The position numbers and the translations under genes were made by a program. The notes beneath the pieces were generated by a model. That model saw only the letters and a list, made by a program, of their open reading frames with translations. It was not told the origin of the DNA and ran no database searches. A stretch of DNA of 59,296 bases, from positions 1 to 59,296 of the IMG/VR virus record IMGVR_UViG_3300017745_000006; one strand, 5' to 3'. Positions 7,418-59,296 of this stretch are shown piece by piece; position 1 is the first letter of the stretch; each line of letters starts with the position of its first letter. The DNA comes from a virus. Lineage: Duplodnaviria > Caudoviricetes.

Positions 7418-9757
7418 ATGAGATACGTACCCTCTACAGGCAGTCGATTTGTACTTCAGGTTCCTGAGGATAAAAACTCTTATATTAACGTAAAGAACCT
7501 TGATGCAAGAGGACTTTCAACAGTATTTGAAGGAAAAATTTCTAACGGAGTGGCGAGTGGGTCTGAAAACCAACTCACTATTAATGAAATCCAAGACGAC
7601 GCCGGCTTGACTTTTGATCAATACAGACCTGTTTTATCTGCAGGAATTGAAATTCAGATGTTTGCCTACGCCAATGTTGGCTTAGGATCAGGCTCTGAAT
7701 CTACCTCGGTAGGAGTTAACAGCTTAGATGCTGTAGGAATTAATTTTTCCGATAAAACCTCAACCTCAACCGAGTTTGTTGGGCCTTTAAAATATTATAT
7801 TTTTGGCTACGACGTAGAAACAGGAAAGATGCCAAATGCAGTTACTATTGTGGGCGAGGACCCAGAGTATAATGCAATTCTTGACCCTTCTAAGTGGAAC
7901 GAAGACCAGTACTTTGAAATAGGGCTTACCAGAACAAGTACCACCACTATACCAATAATATATAGAGTATGGAATGGAAATGTAGAATTTCTCGGCCTTA
8001 TAGGAAACAATAAAATTGGAACAGGATCCCTATCTTTTAAAGATTTTGGTAATAGGCAAATTCCTTCTTGGAACCAAAACGAAATCGCCTGGTCCCCCAG
8101 CTTTTTAGAAGACGTAATTCAGATTATTGGTGGAGTTCCTGTTCAAAGGAAAAAAATTATCGGAAAAGAGCTTTTAAAGATTAAGCCCATTACTGAAAAC
8201 TCGGCTCCTAACTACATAATCGCAGAAACCATAGCTGGAGGAAATCTAGCAAACGGCACAGATTATCAAATAGGAAACACTGTTAAGTTTATTATTGATG
8301 ATACGGCTCGCATTTTAGAAGGACTGTCTCTTGCTTCTGCAGGAAACATAAAAGAGCTGTTCTTTCCGGCAGGCACATATAATATTAGAGACATTGCTTT
8401 AGAAAACTCTTCTTTTGTAGACTATAGCAATATTTCTCTTAGAGGAGTGGGAGAGAGTTCTGTTATTAAAAGATTACCTTCTCACGGATCAAATAATACT
8501 TTCCCTTGCTTACTTAGCTTCTCCGGCACGAGCAGCAAGCCGGTTCAAGGTTTGAGGTTTAGAAGTATTGTATTTGATGGAAATAAAGAAGATAACGCGT
8601 CTGTTAGTCCAGCCGGTGGAGGATACGAGGATGGAAGATATATCTCTGAGGGTTTAGTTTTCTTATCCAGAGCCGAAAATATCACGGTAACAGAATGTAG
8701 ATTTATAGACGCTGCTGGCCCTGGTGTCCATTCAGAGTTTTCAACTTCTGTTCTTTTAAACCAAAACATATTTTCAAGGCTAGGAAGAAACTACGAGACG
8801 ACCGTAAGACCGGTTGAAGTCTTTGAAACAGACAATAACATTGTTCAAGGAAACATATTTGAGTTCTGTACCGCAGGTCCTTATTTCTTTGGCGTTGAGT
8901 TCTCTACAATTAACAACAACATTGTTAGATCTTGTGGAGATGACGGAGTTGTTCTAGAAACTTCTTATCAATGGAGCGCAACTAATAATCTTTCTTATTC
9001 CGATAGTGACTCGCTGATTAAGAGCGTGGATCAATACAATAACGAGTATTCAAAAGCTCCTATAGAAGTAAGAAGAGGAACGGCTCTAGAGCCCATATTC
9101 TTTACCGTTACAAATGGCGGTGAGGCTGTAGGATTGGCCGCGGATTCCATACAGGCCGACATCTATAAGTTAAATGTAAACGGTTCAAAGTCTTCTACCA
9201 AAGTAGGATCTTTTAAAGTAAATCAAACTTCTGATCAATTAGAAGCAGGGATCTTTTCTGTAACTCTTCCAGGTAATGACTCTGGATTAACTACTACGGC
9301 TGGGCTTTTTATCCCCGGAACTGGCGGGCTTTCCTTACTAGATCCCGATAATAACCAATATGGTTACATGTACGAGATATCCGCCACAGCCTTTTTAGGA
9401 GGAGGTGGAAGGGGATTTGTCCCAGTGTCTGTAGCCGAAACAACCATCGGAAGTACTGAATATCTTTCTATTAAGTTAAGAAACACTTCTGATATGCTTT
9501 CCTTTATAGCAATAGAAGAGGGATTTAGTGGTAATGATTTCATTACTATTACGGACTTTACAAATGCTAACGAAGGTATTAATACCTTAAAGGACAATGC
9601 TTATCAAATATCTTCTATAGACACAAACACAAACTCAGTGCTAATTCTACCTGTGACCGGCGTTACTCCTGGAAGTGGTGTTGACTTTAGCGGAGGCAGT
9701 CTATTCATCCGTCGCGAAAACTACCAAATTGCCGACGGCAATATAATCGTTCACTGA
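7418..9757 (+). CDS. Tailspike-like protein with right-handed parallel beta-helix (pectate-lyase-3-like) domain
   Basis: DDT...LFFPAGTYNI...NISLRGVGESSVIK and repeated N..I..N.F/N.V beta-helix rungs. Confidence 0.75.
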   Translation: MRYVPSTGSRFVLQVPEDKNSYINVKNLDARGLSTVFEGKISNGVASGSENQLTINEIQDDAGLTFDQYRPVLSAGIEIQMFAYANVGLGSGSESTSVGVNSLDAVGINFSDKTSTSTEFVGPLKYYIFGYDVETGKMPNAVTIVGEDPEYNAILDPSKWNEDQYFEIGLTRTSTTTIPIIYRVWNGNVEFLGLIGNNKIGTGSLSFKDFGNRQIPSWNQNEIAWSPSFLEDVIQIIGGVPVQRKKIIGKELLKIKPITENSAPNYIIAETIAGGNLANGTDYQIGNTVKFIIDDTARILEGLSLASAGNIKELFFPAGTYNIRDIALENSSFVDYSNISLRGVGESSVIKRLPSHGSNNTFPCLLSFSGTSSKPVQGLRFRSIVFDGNKEDNASVSPAGGGYEDGRYISEGLVFLSRAENITVTECRFIDAAGPGVHSEFSTSVLLNQNIFSRLGRNYETTVRPVEVFETDNNIVQGNIFEFCTAGPYFFGVEFSTINNNIVRSCGDDGVVLETSYQWSATNNLSYSDSDSLIKSVDQYNNEYSKAPIEVRRGTALEPIFFTVTNGGEAVGLAADSIQADIYKLNVNGSKSSTKVGSFKVNQTSDQLEAGIFSVTLPGNDSGLTTTAGLFIPGTGGLSLLDPDNNQYGYMYEISATAFLGGGGRGFVPVSVAETTIGSTEYLSIKLRNTSDMLSFIAIEEGFSGNDFITITDFTNANEGINTLKDNAYQISSIDTNTNSVLILPVTGVTPGSGVDFSGGSLFIRRENYQIADGNIIVH

Positions 9758-58027: not shown

Positions 58028-58196
58028 TAACAGTAACGAAACAGAGTACAGAGCATTTGGTCCAACCAAGTGCCACTACTGCGACGGCAGAGGATTTCAA
58101 ATAATCCAATGCACAACTTTAGAAGGAAAGATACTGCCCAACTTGGTAGAAGACTGCGAACGGTGTAATGAAACAGGCGTACTTAACCGAGATTAA
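58014..58196 (+). CDS. Small DnaJ-type zinc-finger protein
   Basis: CHYCDGRG...CERCNETG; ATG at 58014. Confidence 0.65.
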   Translation: MKKTDNSNETEYRAFGPTKCHYCDGRGFQIIQCTTLEGKILPNLVEDCERCNETGVLNRD

Positions 58197-58662
58197 TAAA
58201 TTAGCTAAAGAACAAATTCTCGTTCTTAACGCCTCATACGAGCCAATAAATATTACTTCTTGGAAAAGAGCATTTGTTCTCTTGCTCAAAGAGAAAGCTT
58301 TGGTTATTAGCCAGAAAGTCATTCGCCTAGTTAATTTCATTAAAATTCCTTTTAACAAGATGATGAGGGCCAAGCCAAGCAGAAGCTCCATTTACACAAG
58401 AGATAGCAACAAATGTCAATATTGTGGCTCTGCTAAAAGACTCACAATAGACCACGTTGTTCCTAAATCAAAAGGAGGGACAGACGACTGGGATAACCTA
58501 GTTGTTGCATGCTCCTCCTGTAATACAAAGAAGAGTAATAAACTGCTAGAGCAGAGCGGGCTAAAGCTAATTAAAAAACCGGCAAGGCCAAGAACGTATC
58601 TAGACCTTACTATTTTTCAAACTAAGTGCGAAGAATGGAAAGAATATTGCTTTATAGTTTAA
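58168..58662 (+). CDS. HNH endonuclease (McrA-like, VLNASYEP type)
   Basis: LVLNASYEP...RD..KCQYCG...LTIDHVVPKSKGG.DDWDNLVVACSSCN.KK. Confidence 0.9.
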   Translation: MKQAYLTEINKLAKEQILVLNASYEPINITSWKRAFVLLLKEKALVISQKVIRLVNFIKIPFNKMMRAKPSRSSIYTRDSNKCQYCGSAKRLTIDHVVPKSKGGTDDWDNLVVACSSCNTKKSNKLLEQSGLKLIKKPARPRTYLDLTIFQTKCEEWKEYCFIV

Positions 58663-58686
58663 ATACAAATATAGAGGAAGTGTAAA

Positions 58687-58745
58687 ACTTACTACGCTTC
58701 TTCCGTTCATCTCACTTTGTGAGACGCAAGTAAGTCGCGCAACGG
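58687..58745 (+). ncRNA. Glutamine riboswitch-like aptamer 1 (Downstream-peptide/glutamine-II type)
   Basis: P1 ccgtt/aacgg, CA linker, P2 tctcac-ttt-gtgaga, CGCAA, pseudoknot acttac(58687-92)/gtaagt(58730-35). Confidence 0.75.
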
Positions 58746-58926
58746 AACGTTGATCCCATGGTAGAATTTTTATTATATTCATCACTCACATGCGCTCAAG
58801 CCGACGCAATTATGCTAAGGATGAAAGCAAACGAGAATATCTCCGCCGCTTTTAAAATTGAGTTAGTAGAAACCGTAAAGGAATCTGTACCTGAGTGTTA
58901 TTGGGACGCAAACGACTGAAGGAACG
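58733..58926 (+). ncRNA. Glutamine riboswitch-like aptamer 2 with ~145-nt P2 loop
   Basis: P1 cgtt(58748-51)/aacg(58923-26), P2 tccca(58754-58)/tggga(58902-06), CGCAAA, GAAGGAACG, pseudoknot agtcg(58733-37)/cgact(58913-17). Confidence 0.65.
58758..58919 (+). CDS. 53-aa peptide nested in the riboswitch
   Basis: MVEFLLYSSLTCAQADAIMLRMKANENISAAFKIELVETVKESVPECYWDAND*; not in the ORF track. Confidence 0.7.
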   Translation: MVEFLLYSSLTCAQADAIMLRMKANENISAAFKIELVETVKESVPECYWDAND

Positions 58927-58961
58927 GGGCCTAAAAATCCAACTACTTCAGGAGTACCACA

Positions 58962-59126
58962 ATGAACACACTCGACATCATCAAGAAGCAGATCAACAAA
59001 GCATCTGCACTTCACGACGCACAGATCGCTCACACCGCATACCGCGGAGTAGAGTACGAACTATGCGGCAAGGCCGAAGAAACCCATGGCACATTCTGCT
59101 ATAGAGGTCGTACTTACAGCCGATGA
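58962..59126 (+). CDS. DUF4278-like small protein (54 aa)
   Basis: MNTLDIIKKQINKASALHDAQIAHTAYRGVEYELCGKAEETHGTFCYRGRTYSR*; two YRG..Y motifs; AGGAG SD at 58950-58954. Confidence 0.85.
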   Translation: MNTLDIIKKQINKASALHDAQIAHTAYRGVEYELCGKAEETHGTFCYRGRTYSR

Positions 59127-59131
59127 TAACT

Positions 59132-59154
59132 AAGGGCCTAACGGCCCTTTTTTT
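59132..59154. terminator. Intrinsic terminator between convergent genes
   Basis: aagggcc-taac-ggccctt followed by a T-run. Confidence 0.85.
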
Positions 59155-59296
59155 ATACGCCCCAGATAGGCTCCATTGTTTTCTTAGAGACTACGTTAGA
59201 TTGACGCAAGATCTTTGGAGTACCATCGTCCTTGAGCTCAGGCTCGATCCAATCACGGTTGCCATCGAGAGCCGCTGCGATTTCACTAATCCAGTC
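59153..59296 (-). CDS. C-terminal fragment of a minus-strand gene (truncated by window edge)
   Basis: ...DWISEIAAALDGNRDWIEPELKDDGTPKILRQSNVVSKKTMEPIWGV*; stop overlaps the terminator. Confidence 0.65.
   Translation of the reverse strand, partial: DWISEIAAALDGNRDWIEPELKDDGTPKILRQSNVVSKKTMEPIWGV

What the first reader, a model, noticed from the sequence alone, without database searches (positions are those of the whole stretch)
58687..59126. Interlocked tandem glutamine-riboswitch-like aptamers, one with a whole ORF nested in its P2 loop, upstream of a DUF4278-like gene
Seen: aptamer 1 is compact (P1 ccgtt/aacgg, P2 tctcac/gtgaga, pseudoknot acttac/gtaagt). Aptamer 2 has its 5' half (cgtt-ga-tccca) and 3' half (tggga-cgcaaa-cgact-gaagg-aacg) separated by a 53-codon ORF. 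The A of that ORF's ATG is the last base of the P2 5' strand, and its last codons (W-D-A-N-D-stop) are the aptamer's 3' half. The two pseudoknots share nucleotides 58733-58735, so they may be mutually exclusive. Established: Downstream-peptide (glutamine-II) riboswitches precede DUF4278 genes in marine picocyanobacteria. Inference: aptamer 1 gates translation of the nested peptide, and ribosomes on that peptide would melt aptamer 2, which gates the DUF4278-like protein. That would be a translation-coupled two-step nitrogen-status switch in a phage. The CA-to-GA change in the aptamer 2 linker and GC in place of GG before the P1 3' strand in aptamer 1 may alter ligand binding.
Basis: partly seen in the sequence, partly recalled or inferred. 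Interest (0 to 1): 0.85.

Follow-up and report, generated by a model that had tools for sequence, protein, structure and literature searches.

The report
Genes nested inside glutamine riboswitch
A marine cyanophage carries a glutamine-sensing RNA switch whose hairpin loop houses a whole small protein gene, and whose two sensor cores sit one inside the other instead of side by side.

Summary
Window 58704-58954 is a glutamine riboswitch leader in front of a DUF4278/IF17-like gene. It has homologues in 419 phage records.

A 53-codon gene (58758-58919, phrog_504) lies inside the second aptamer hairpin. That hairpin closes through a covarying long-range stem (58754-58758 with 58902-58906). The gene's last five codons and its stop codon are also aptamer sequence, and their synonymous sites are frozen. 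In other phages the first hairpin holds a probably related 66-codon gene. ORF-free compact forms also exist.

Three independent covariations show a nested fold:
- The first 5' half pairs with the last 3' half, giving a glnA-type three-way junction.
- The two middle strands pair with each other as a hairpin.

Rfam's glnA model scores compact homologues above threshold in exactly this arrangement (18 of 27 compact loci given), and RNAalifold predicts it unaided. Its acttac/gtaagt pseudoknot is lineage-specific.

The mechanism is inferred only. Glutamine probably frees the downstream ribosome-binding site from an anti-SD helix and may lock the nested gene's start. This is a new variant of a known riboswitch class.

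The parts
58704..58708 (+). CGUUC, 5' strand of outer P1 (ligand-core helix)
   Evidence: Pairs with GAACG 58922-26. In 142 distinct sequences the end pair is C:G in 135 and U:A in 2; the other 5 are mis-picked CGTT sites. RNAalifold pairs these strands in 58 of 58 compact homologues.
58710..58724 (+). Hairpin 1 (P2 of the outer core), TCTCAC/GTGAGA
   Evidence: 41 distinct stem sequences among homologues. In 27 other loci this hairpin encloses a 65-75-codon ORF.
58725..58732 (+). CGCA linker (C58727 is the linchpin base) plus AGUA (5' half of the E-loop)
   Evidence: Matches the Rfam glnA consensus CGGAAGUA. Position 19 covaries with the base after the distal GAACG: C:G in 244, G:C in 6, C:A in 1 of 251 distinct sequences.
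58733..58737 (+). AGUCG, 5' strand of P3
   Evidence: Complementary to CGACU 58913-17. Infernal aligns it as P3 in compact homologues. It is nearly invariant, with only G-U changes, so covariation is inconclusive.
58739..58745 (+). GCAACGG, proximal 3' module
   Evidence: Forms a hairpin with CGUUG 58748-52. The end pair is G:C in 114 and C:G in 21 of 135 sequences, and never unpaired. No mixed haplotype belonging to this element was found in IMG/VR.
58748..58753 (+). CGUUGA, 5' strand of the inner core
   Evidence: as for the proximal 3' module.
58754..58758 (+). UCCCA, 5' strand of the long-range stem of hairpin 2; A58758 begins the nested ATG
   Evidence: Pairs with UGGGA 58902-06. Four of its 5 pairs change on both sides (UA130/CG4/GC1; CG127/UG7/AU1; CG130/UG4/UA1; CG109/UA18/UG7). 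Compact homologues carry a small covarying hairpin here.
58758..58919 (+). Nested gene, 53 aa, two conserved Cys, phrog_504
   Evidence: ORF. It is kept open in 134 of 135 loci. Entropy by codon position is 46.6/23.1/61.4. PHROG hit E 1.7e-29. Predicted as three helices, pLDDT 76.
58902..58906 (+). UGGGA, 3' strand of the long-range stem (codons W49-D50)
58907..58910 (+). CGCA linker of the inner core (inside codons D50-A51)
   Evidence: Third-position entropy of codons 50-53 is 0-0.3, against about 1-1.9 elsewhere in the ORF. The same letters are kept in ORF-free homologues found with patterns that did not specify them.
58913..58917 (+). CGACU, 3' strand of P3; also part of the strand that can pair with the downstream SD
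   Evidence: for P3. The alternative pairing with 58946-55 is read from the sequence and appears in the RNAfold MFE.
58916..58921 (+). CUGAAG, containing the nested gene's stop codon UGA (58917-19) and the GAA of the E-loop; 5' strand of the SD-proximal helix
   Evidence: Pairs with CUUCAG 58946-51. 134 of 135 loci keep six standard pairs. CTAAAG goes with CTTTAG in 39 loci and never with CTTCAG.
58922..58927 (+). GAACG + G, distal 3' module (outer P1 3' strand and linchpin G)
58927..58940 (+). Small variable hairpin starting at the linchpin G (GGG...CC)
   Evidence: Homologues show GGG/CCC, GGA/UCC, GGC/GCC and GGUU/AACC. This is my reading of those listings; it was not tested statistically.
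58946..58954 (+). CUUCAG (3' strand of the SD-proximal helix) overlapping SD AGGAG 58950-54
58962..59126 (+). Downstream 54-aa gene, DUF4278-like (IF17-like), phrog_545
   Evidence: Pfam DUF4278 at 17 bits, below cut-off. PHROG hit E 5.5e-32. The short-type genes at the same place in homologues score 24.6-28.6 bits, and 4 of 6 reach the cut-off of 25.3.
59132..59156 (+). Intrinsic-terminator-like hairpin plus T run, ending the small operon

Best explanation
This is the 5' leader of a small cyanomyovirus operon. It is a glutamine riboswitch built from two copies of the glutamine-binding core, and the copies are nested, not tandem.

**Outer core.** It is a glnA-type (glutamine-I) three-way junction:
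- P1 is CGUUC 58704-08 with GAACG 58922-26.
- P2 is hairpin 58710-24.
- The linker is CGCA followed by the E-loop halves AGUA (58729-32) and GAA (58918-20).
- P3 is AGUCG 58733-37 with CGACU 58913-17.

**Inner core.** P3 opens into a second copy of the core in circularly permuted order. Its 3' module, GCAACGG, pairs as a hairpin with the following CGUUG. Then come a second P2-type stem and a second CGCA. The loop of that second stem has been expanded to hold a complete, translated 53-aa gene. Its ATG lies in the 5' strand of the stem. Its last five codons and its stop codon are the aptamer's 3' strands.

**Likely operation (inferred).**
- Without glutamine, ACGACUGAAG (58912-21) pairs with CUUCAGGAGU (58946-55) and covers the SD of the IF17-like gene.
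- Glutamine stabilises outer P1, the linchpin pair, the E-loop and P3. These need the same nucleotides, so the SD is released and the switch is ON, as in known glutamine riboswitches.
- The folded inner core buries the nested gene's ATG and, in most homologues, its GGAG. Glutamine would therefore lower translation of the nested gene.
- Ribosomes finishing the nested gene unzip both cores and the anti-SD helix. This couples the two cistrons.
For: **Shown**
1. Family. Compact ORF-free homologues score at or above the RF01739 gathering score as a single 86-101-nt hit that spans both units. This holds for L201 at 41.1 bits, 4 of 6 loci and 13 of 20 loci. The downstream genes are DUF4278.
2. Nested topology.
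 - The end pair of the middle hairpin is G:C in 114 and C:G in 21 of 135 sequences, never unpaired. By anchored extraction it is 121 and 21 of 142.
 - No mixed haplotype of this element exists in IMG/VR. The 13 pattern matches are unrelated high-GC DNA.
 - The end pair of outer P1 is C:G in 135 and U:A in 2 distinct sequences.
 - The linchpin pairs unit 1 position 19 with the base after the distal GAACG: C:G in 244, G:C in 6, C:A in 1 of 251. All 11 loci with CGGA have GGAACGC. In the 58 compact sequences it is 53 C:G and 5 G:C with none unpaired, against 5 mismatches at each linchpin in the side-by-side model.
 - RNAalifold run blind on the 58 compact homologues returns the nested fold.
3. 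Long-range stem around the ORF: 4 of its 5 pairs change on both sides.
4. The nested ORF is a gene.
 - It is open in 134 of 135 loci.
 - Entropy by codon position is 46.6/23.1/61.4.
 - It belongs to phrog_504.
 - GGAG lies 10-11 nt upstream of the ATG in 133 of 152 ORF-bearing distinct sequences, against 1 of 59 compact ones.
5. Dual coding: synonymous sites of the last codons are frozen.
6. SD-proximal helix: 134 of 135 loci keep six standard pairs, and the stop codon TGA/TAA covaries with its partner.
7. Generality: hairpin 1 hosts a 65-75-aa ORF in 27 loci. Its ATG lies in the 5' strand of the stem and its stop codon in the 3' strand. This includes the isolates Syn19, Syn2, S-CAM1 and S-TIM54.

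**From papers (passages read)**
- Glutamine riboswitches switch IF17/DUF4278 genes ON. Binding is proposed to melt a helix that holds the RBS (PMC6212724).
- The core pairs C1:G40 to C5:G36 and the linchpin C19:G41 are described in PMC6698751.
Against: - No ligand-binding or expression data exist. Every regulatory step is inferred.
- The window itself reaches no Rfam gathering score.
- P3 and the SD/anti-SD pairing show only one-sided (G-U) changes. In the two Prochlorococcus-phage loci P3 has a C-A mismatch.
- The inner core has no covariation at its own linchpin. Its core helix is closed by a loop of only 3-5 nt that contains the linchpin G, which may be sterically tight.
- RNAalifold instead pairs GCG 58737-39 with the CGC of the second CGCA.
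- All four core strands are almost invariant. The side-by-side pairing therefore remains chemically possible in most sequences and may be visited.
- Nearest-neighbour energies do not favour the nested fold in the window: MFE -59.9 kcal/mol with unit 1 folded on itself, against -54.8 for nested.
- Coupling through the nested gene's stop codon would blur a clean glutamine response.
- The e/f haplotype changes 14 times on a tree built from the ORF (shuffled labels give 19-21). That looks like recombination, so the number of independent double changes is unknown.
Confidence: 0.6

Rival explanations
1. Two ordinary aptamers lie side by side: unit 1 is 58704-58745, and unit 2 is 58748-58758 plus 58902-58927. 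They are linked by pseudoknots. Aptamer 1 gates the nested peptide, and ribosomes on that peptide melt aptamer 2, which gates the DUF4278-like gene.
For: - Each unit alone resembles Rfam models: window unit 1 scores 24.6 and 23.5 bits; P-RSM6 unit 1 scores 33.1 bits on RF01704, whose GA is 33; unit 2 of L110 and L241 scores 34.0 and 35.4 bits on RF01704.
- In the window, unit 1 can close itself with 7 base pairs, and this is the RNAfold MFE.
- Tandem glutamine riboswitches are common: 157 doublets (PMC9481103, passages read).
- The helix CUGAAG/CUUCAG sits where glutamine-II has its P2.
Against: - The end pairs of both side-by-side core helices are mismatched in 20 and 21 of 142 distinct sequences, while the swapped partners always pair.
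- Both side-by-side linchpins are mismatched in the CGGA lineage: 5 of 58 sequences and 11 of 11 loci.
- Only 2-5 nt separate the units, so unit 1 has no room for an expression platform.
- The acttac partner is absent from 145 of 147 upstream contexts.
Confidence: 0.12
2. Only the outer glnA-type core binds glutamine. The middle strands, the second stem and the second CGCA are a structured P3 extension or an OFF-state alternative. The nested genes are passengers that settled in insertion-tolerant loops to use the promoter, and have no regulatory link beyond having to leave the stem intact.
For: - Rfam's model needs only the outer elements.
- The inner linchpin and P3 never covary.
- RNAalifold pairs the second CGC with GCG instead.
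- The loop closing the inner core helix is very short.
- Different ORF families and ORF-free forms occupy the same loops.
Against: - The inner strands keep the exact core sequences (GAACGG, CGUUCA, CGCA) instead of drifting as the P2-type stems do.
- The second CGCA is kept in ORF-free forms and freezes synonymous sites in ORF-bearing ones.
- The nested ATG always lies in the stem, and GGAG appears in the hairpin loop only when an ORF is present: 133 of 152 against 1 of 59.
Confidence: 0.25
3. The second aptamer, or the whole element, is a decayed relic broken by gene insertion. It is conserved only because it overlaps coding sequence.
For: The window gets no Rfam hit at gathering score. 165 nt separate the two halves of the core.
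Against: - The stem around the insert covaries.
- Non-coding parts such as CGCAAGUAAGUCGCG are invariant in 135 loci.
- Synonymous sites are frozen where ORF and aptamer overlap.
- The same design recurs in hairpin 1.
Confidence: 0.03

Closest known systems
Glutamine-I riboswitch (glnA RNA, Rfam RF01739)
   Same: - The three-way junction has the same strands: CGUUC / hairpin / CG(G/C)A-AGUA / P3 / GAA-G-GAACG, plus a long-range linchpin pair.
- It lies upstream of a DUF4278/IF17-type gene.
- Compact phage homologues pass the family's gathering score.
   Different: - In most members the linchpin is C:G, as in glutamine-II, not G:C.
- P3 is not a hairpin. It opens into a second copy of the core and, in the window, a 165-nt insert with a gene.
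- The window itself cannot be found with the model.
Glutamine-II riboswitch (Downstream-peptide motif, RF01704)
   Same: - It has the CGCA linker with a C19:G41 linchpin.
- It is associated with short DUF4278 genes of marine picocyanobacteria (PMC6212724).
- A helix joins the strand just 5' of GGAACG to a strand close to the start site.
   Different: - Here the core helix is a nested P1, not a pseudoknot.
- The P2-like helix competes with P3 and the E-loop for the same bases, so it more likely belongs to the OFF state.
- Scores are below or at threshold.
Tandem (doublet) riboswitches, including glutamine doublets and glycine riboswitches (PMC9481103, passages read)
   Same: Two ligand-core copies sit in one leader, so a sharper or cooperative response is possible.
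   Different: - Described doublets are read as consecutive units.
- Here the strands are swapped, so one core encloses the other and the inner one is circularly permuted.
- The words 'nested' and 'phage' do not occur in that review.
Leader ORFs inside riboswitch or attenuator leaders, such as mgtL in the Salmonella mgtA Mg2+ leader (recalled, not read here); translated uORFs in M. tuberculosis riboswitches (bioRxiv 10.1101/2022.06.01.494293, search listing only)
   Same: Translation of an ORF inside the leader competes with RNA folding and can add a second input.
   Different: Those are short regulatory peptides in expression platforms. Here conserved 53-75-aa protein families sit inside the aptamer's own hairpin loops and share codons with ligand-core strands.
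Homing-endonuclease ORFs looped out of group I introns, such as the phage T4 td intron (recalled)
   Same: A whole gene is housed in a peripheral loop of a functional RNA fold. The loop is closed by a long-range stem, and translation and folding exclude each other.
   Different: The host RNA is a metabolite sensor, not a ribozyme. The nested genes are not endonucleases and show no sign of mobility.

Membership tests
Glutamine-I riboswitch (RF01739) | Covariance-model score at or above the gathering score (35 bits) | tested here: not met
   The window scores 24.6 bits, for unit 1 only. The model cannot span the 165-nt insert. Compact homologues do pass: L201 at 41.1 bits, 4 of 6 loci and 13 of 20 loci, always as one 86-101-nt hit.
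Glutamine-I riboswitch (RF01739) | P1 core helix CGUUC/GAACG | tested here: met
   58704-08 pairs with 58922-26. The end pair is C:G in 135 and U:A in 2. RNAalifold pairs these strands in 58 of 58 sequences.
Glutamine-I riboswitch (RF01739) | Variable P2 hairpin directly after CGUUCA | tested here: met
   58710-24. There are 41 distinct stems, with changes on both sides.
Glutamine-I riboswitch (RF01739) | E-loop halves AGUA and GAA flanking P3 | tested here: met
   AGUA 58729-32 and GAA 58918-20 are present and invariant. They are aligned to the consensus in homologues. Whether the non-canonical pairs form was not testable.
Glutamine-I riboswitch (RF01739) | P3 helix | tested here: inconclusive
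   AGUCG and CGACU are complementary. Only G-U changes are seen (GC132/GU3, AU50/GU7), with one mismatch in two Prochlorococcus-phage loci. No compensatory change was found.
Glutamine-I riboswitch (RF01739) | Long-range linchpin Watson-Crick pair capping P1 | tested here: met
   C58727 pairs with G58927. It covaries: C:G in 244, G:C in 6, C:A in 1 of 251; 53 and 5 of 58.
Glutamine-I riboswitch (RF01739) | Selective binding of L-glutamine | not testable with these tools
   Needs in-line probing or ITC.
Glutamine-II riboswitch (RF01704) | Covariance-model score at or above the gathering score (33 bits) | tested here: not met
   The window scores 23.5 bits. Among homologous units, P-RSM6 unit 1 scores 33.1, L201 unit 2 scores 32.1, L110 scores 34.0 and L241 scores 35.4.
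Glutamine-II riboswitch (RF01704) | Core helix formed as a pseudoknot, between the 5' CGUUC of a unit and the GGAACG in the loop of its own P2 | tested here: not met
   For unit 2 the own-unit end pair is mismatched in 21 of 142 sequences, and the own-unit linchpin in 5 of 58, while the swapped partners pair.
DUF4278 (PF14105; IF17-like) for the downstream protein | Pfam score at or above the cut-off (25.3 bits) | tested here: not met
   The window protein scores 17 bits, E 0.008, and has two YRG motifs. Short-type proteins at the same place in homologues score 24.6-28.6 bits, and 4 of 6 reach the cut-off.
Protein-coding gene (the nested ORF) | Conserved open frame, codon-position pattern, own translation signals | tested here: met
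   The frame is open in 134 of 135 loci. Entropy is pos3 > pos1 > pos2. It belongs to phrog_504. GGAG is present in 133 of 152 ORF-bearing sequences against 1 of 59 compact ones. Translation itself was not shown.

The most novel reading that the evidence does not exclude
Both cores bind glutamine. The inner one would then be a natural circular permutation of the glutamine aptamer, grown inside P3 of a canonical one. The pair would work as a two-site sensor with opposite outputs on one mRNA. Glutamine would lock the start sites of the small two-Cys protein genes housed in the aptamer hairpins (OFF) and release the SD of the IF17-like glutamine-synthetase inhibitor (ON). Ribosomes on the nested genes would in turn veto glutamine sensing. 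This would be the first case of complete protein genes living inside, and sharing codons with, a metabolite-binding aptamer.
Probability: 0.3. Interest if true: 0.9.

Novelty: new variant of a known kind. Interest (0 to 1): 0.82.

Why it matters
**For riboswitch biology**
- Riboswitch aptamers are treated as compact non-coding modules. Here the variable hairpins of a glutamine aptamer carry whole conserved genes, and ligand-core strands double as codons and as a stop codon.
- Standard Rfam annotation misses the element in the window. Most sampled relatives carry the same ORF insert: 103 of 109 distinct sequences from a scan that did not select for the ORF.
- The nested, strand-swapped arrangement of two cores is a topology I did not find described for glutamine doublets. 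Searches and the passages read did not show it.

**For cyanophage biology**
- It ties a phage-encoded IF17-like protein, a likely inhibitor of host glutamine synthetase, and a family of unknown small two-Cys proteins to the host's glutamine level.

**Testability**
- The same locus is present in cultured phages, including Syn19, Syn2, S-CAM1, S-CAM8 and S-TIM54.

Tried and rejected
**Analyses that were not decisive or could not be run**
The tools take only unaltered sequence and Infernal is not in the script box. I used natural ORF-free homologues instead.
- Thermodynamic folding of the window did not decide between models: MFE -59.9 kcal/mol, nested -54.8, side-by-side constraint -48.0.
- The pair counts for the first CGUUC strand (for example 'UG:14' and 'other' 8-25) are unreliable. 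In about 25 of the 135 loci that strand lies roughly 210 nt further upstream, outside the aligned stretch, because hairpin 1 holds an ORF. I recounted by anchored extraction. Five of its 142 rows picked a false CGTT site; I list them but do not count them.
- I tried to count independent origins of the C..G haplotype on a FastTree tree of the ORF interior. It gave 14 changes, against 19-21 for shuffled labels. That reflects recombination, so it was not used as an event count.
- The first own-genome pattern search used a badly designed pattern and found nothing. It is uninformative.
- The protein atlas gave only unnamed clusters.
- I did not search the AlphaFold model against structure libraries. 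A 53-aa three-helix model would give unspecific matches.
- RNA-library contigs cover 58555-58921 (run X16) and 58684-58929 (run X18). One contig in X15 shows a compact ORF-free relative. Contigs cannot show starts, strand or level, so this only says the sequence is present in RNA libraries.
- The simple promoter scan found no sigma-70-type site upstream of 58704 on the + strand. The window's promoter is unknown.
- Host genomes were not searched for the nested arrangement.

**Sources I could not see**
- Ames & Breaker 2011 and Ren et al. 2015 are not held. They may describe tandem or nested glnA arrangements that I could not see.
These include Table S7 of PMC9964418, which lists cyanophage glnA RNAs, and the supplementary tables and figures of PMC6212724. 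They may bear on which phage loci are already annotated.
Full report
**What is in the window.**
- The leader runs from CGTTC at 58704 to the SD AGGAG at 58950-54.
- It contains two '5' modules' of the glutamine aptamer, each of the form CGUU(C/G)A-hairpin-CGCA. They lie at 58704-58728 and at 58748-58758 plus 58902-58910.
- It contains two '3' modules' of the form G(C/G)AACGG, at 58739-45 and 58921-27.
- A 53-codon ORF (58758-58919) separates the two strands of the second hairpin. A 54-codon ORF follows at 58962-59126, and then a terminator-like hairpin at 59132-49.
- Rfam finds nothing at gathering score in the whole window. With relaxed thresholds only unit 1 is seen: RF01739 at 24.6 bits and RF01704 at 23.5 bits.
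- The downstream protein hits DUF4278 weakly, at 17 bits against a cut-off of 25.3.

**Conservation.**
- The stretch 58690-59130 matches 419 of 50,697 phage records, all cyanophages. 259 of them cover at least 80% of it.
- 259 of 266 candidate viral-contig stretches encode a relative of the nested protein.
- With further pattern scans and named phage records I held about 250 distinct versions of the element.
- Among 201 loci holding both units, 193 have an insert of 182-284 nt between the two linkers and 8 are compact at 41-56 nt.

**The nested ORF is a gene that shares letters with the aptamer.**
- Starting from the ATG in the 5' strand of the stem, an ORF is open in 134 of 135 distinct loci, mostly 53-66 codons. 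In 129 of the 134 it reads through the 3' module and stops at the TGA or TAA inside it.
- In 68 ORFs of 53 codons the summed column entropy is 46.6, 23.1 and 61.4 for codon positions 1, 2 and 3. In the last codons (D50 A51 N52 D53) third-position entropy falls to 0-0.3, against about 1-1.9 elsewhere. The RNA therefore constrains synonymous sites there.
- The protein belongs to phrog_504, of unknown function. It has two invariant Cys and is predicted as three short helices, pLDDT 76.
- An SD-like GGAG lies 10-11 nt before the ATG in 133 of 152 ORF-bearing distinct sequences, but in only 1 of 59 compact ones. The window itself has GGAA.

**The stem around the ORF is real, and the design recurs.**
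- Four of the five pairs of 58754-58 with 58902-06 change on both sides. Examples are UCCCA/UGGGA, CCCCA/UGGGG, UCCUA/UAGGA and GAUUAU/AUAAUC.
- Compact homologues carry an ordinary covarying hairpin at this place.
- In 27 loci the first hairpin also holds an ORF of 65-75 codons (phrog_6471). This includes Syn19, Syn2, S-CAM1, S-TIM54 and P-SSM3. Its ATG lies in the 5' strand of the stem and its stop codon in the 3' strand, for example UCUUAUG...CAUAAGA and UCUCAUG...CAUGAGA.
- Profile comparison suggests that the nested proteins are distant relatives. The hairpin-1 type against the long hairpin-2 type gives 84% probability, E 7e-6. The window type against the long type gives 80%, E 1.4e-5. 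The window type against the hairpin-1 type gives only 27%.

**Topology.** Three covariations say otherwise.
1. The base before AACGG of the proximal 3' module and the fifth base of the following CGUUN are G and C in 114 of 135 sequences and C and G in 21. They are never mixed. By anchored extraction the counts are 121 and 21 of 142. Patterns for the mixed forms match 3 and 10 IMG/VR contigs, all unrelated high-GC DNA without the element.
2. The fifth base of the first CGUUC pairs with the first base of the last GAACG: C:G in 135 and U:A in 2 distinct sequences. In those two, both own-unit pairings are mismatched.
3. The linchpin base of unit 1 (CG**C**A, or CG**G**A in one lineage) pairs with the base after the distal GAACG. 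It is C:G in 244, G:C in 6 and C:A in 1 of 251 distinct sequences. All 11 CGGA loci have GGAACGC. In the 58 compact sequences it is 53 C:G and 5 G:C with none unpaired. The side-by-side model has 5 mismatches at each linchpin.

Two unsupervised results agree with this.
- Infernal places the glnA model across both units, with P3 as AGU[38-48 nt]ACU, and scores it above the gathering score in 18 of the 27 compact loci I gave it.
- RNAalifold on the 58 compact sequences returns outer P1, hairpin 1, P3, the middle hairpin and hairpin 2.

The fold is therefore nested. The outer core is glnA-type, and its P3 (AGUCG/CGACU) opens into a junction that carries the middle hairpin and the ORF-bearing stem.

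**What the inner part is.** Read 5' to 3', the inner junction runs: P3 strand - G-(G/C)AACG-G - short loop - CGUU(C/G)-A - stem - CGCA - AA - P3 strand. That is the glnA order circularly permuted, without the E-loop.
- For: its core letters are as invariant as those of the outer core. The second CGCA is kept in ORF-free forms that were found with patterns not specifying it.
- Against: its linchpin never varies. The loop closing its core helix has only 3-5 nt including the linchpin G. RNAalifold prefers to pair the second CGC with GCG 58737-39.
- Whether it binds glutamine is open. I put this at about 0.3-0.4.

**Expression platform.**
- CUGAAG (58916-21) pairs with CUUCAG (58946-51) in 134 of 135 loci. 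The stop-codon variant TAA always has U opposite (39 loci), and CTAAAG is never found with CTTCAG.
- Read from the sequence, the helix can extend to ACGACUGAAG with CUUCAGGAGU, containing a tandem G-A step. That covers the whole SD.
- The same 5' strand supplies the P3 3' strand, the E-loop GAA and the G before GAACG in the outer core. The two structures therefore exclude each other.
- This matches the published logic for glutamine switches: they are ON switches, and ligand binding is proposed to melt a helix holding the RBS (PMC6212724, passages read; PMC6698751, passages read).
- In the CGGA lineage the anti-SD instead follows the linchpin C directly (CUCUUUAA with UUAAGGAG; my reading).

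**Mechanism: what is shown and what is inferred.**
- Shown: family relationship, nested topology, the coding status of the insert, dual coding, and conservation of the SD-proximal helix.
- Inferred: glutamine stabilises the outer core and frees the SD of the IF17-like gene. The folded inner junction hides the nested ATG and GGAG. Ribosomes ending at 58917-19 unzip both cores and the anti-SD helix, which couples the cistrons.
- The last point could blur the glutamine response, so the net logic needs experiment.

**Promoter context.**
- In 111 of 147 distinct upstream contexts a TTGAYN-16-18-TANNNT site ends 3-12 nt before the first CGTTCA. Most transcripts would then start at the aptamer.
- The window, like L014, instead has an HNH endonuclease gene upstream (58168-58662) and no such site.

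**Comparison with what is in print.**
- Glutamine riboswitches in phages are reported as Rfam hits. Examples are a 99-nt glnA hit of 44 bits in S-CREM1 (PMC9964418) and the statement that riboswitches are rare in phages (PMC9004378). I read passages of both.
- Tandem glnA RNAs are noted in PMC2864571. PMC9481103 counts 157 doublets and treats them as pseudo-cooperative tandem units. I read passages of both.
- I found no description of ORFs inside the aptamer hairpins or of the nested, permuted arrangement.
- Ames & Breaker 2011 and Ren 2015 were not available, and supplements were closed, so prior mention cannot be excluded.

**Verdict.** The element is a new architectural variant of the glutamine riboswitch. 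It is widespread in cyanomyoviruses and has clear, cheap experiments available.

Noticed in passing
L001-L200, directly upstream of the first CGTTCA (e.g. L003 about 40-75; L090 about 8300-8335): A sigma-70-like promoter (TTGACT, 17 nt, TATAAT) ends 3-12 nt before the aptamer in 111 of 147 contexts. Its -10 box sits in the loop of a covarying palindrome, for example GGTCTATAATAGACC, ATGGTATAATTACCAT and GAGTCTATAATGACTC. This may be a protein-binding site or a hairpin in read-through RNA.
   Followed up: partly
L022, L076, L086, L089, L129, L147, L206 and others, between the distal GGAACGG and the SD: A subset carries a roughly 30-nt structured insert in the expression platform (...ACGGAUCC-stem-GNRA-like loop-stem-GAGAAGGUU...). 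The inner stem covaries (CUGCG/CGCAG, CAUCG/CGAUG, CUCGG/CCGAG). Its function is unknown.
   Followed up: no
window 58168-58662: An HNH endonuclease gene (Pfam HNH, 64.4 bits) abuts the riboswitch, as in the S-TIM5 and S-TIM54 type phages. In this lineage it replaces the usual promoter region.
   Followed up: partly
L218, L240, L275, L302, L320, L324, L340-L344: This lineage has a glutamine-I-type linchpin (CGGA...GGAACGC), no nested ORF, and an obvious anti-SD directly after the linchpin C (CUCUUUAA with UUAAGGAG). Its downstream genes are longer and start M-S-x-A-T-Y-R-G-C.
   Followed up: partly
L202 740-925; L228 1351-1540; L090 1021-1116; L218 2684-2774 and 3805-4007; L340 6009-8696: Other known cyanophage RNAs lie near the riboswitch locus: manA RNA, PhotoRC-II, a group I intron, wcaG RNA and a tRNA array.
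   Followed up: no
window 58737-39 with 58907-09: RNAalifold pairs GCG with the CGC of the second CGCA and so extends P3 across an AAA bulge. This may be an apo-state alternative to the inner core.
   Followed up: no
window 58701-07 with 58741-47: Only in the window lineage, unit 1 can close on itself with 7 base pairs (UUCCGUU/AACGGAA). This is the RNAfold MFE and may shift the balance between alternative folds in this phage.
   Followed up: no
nested proteins (window 58758-58916; L099 3951-4148; L205 322-513): All three nested-protein types begin with a short hydrophobic stretch followed by a conserved Cys (for example LTC, MSC, LKC) and have a second conserved Cys near the C-terminus. They may be small secreted, lipid-anchored or disulfide-bonded proteins.
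   Followed up: partly
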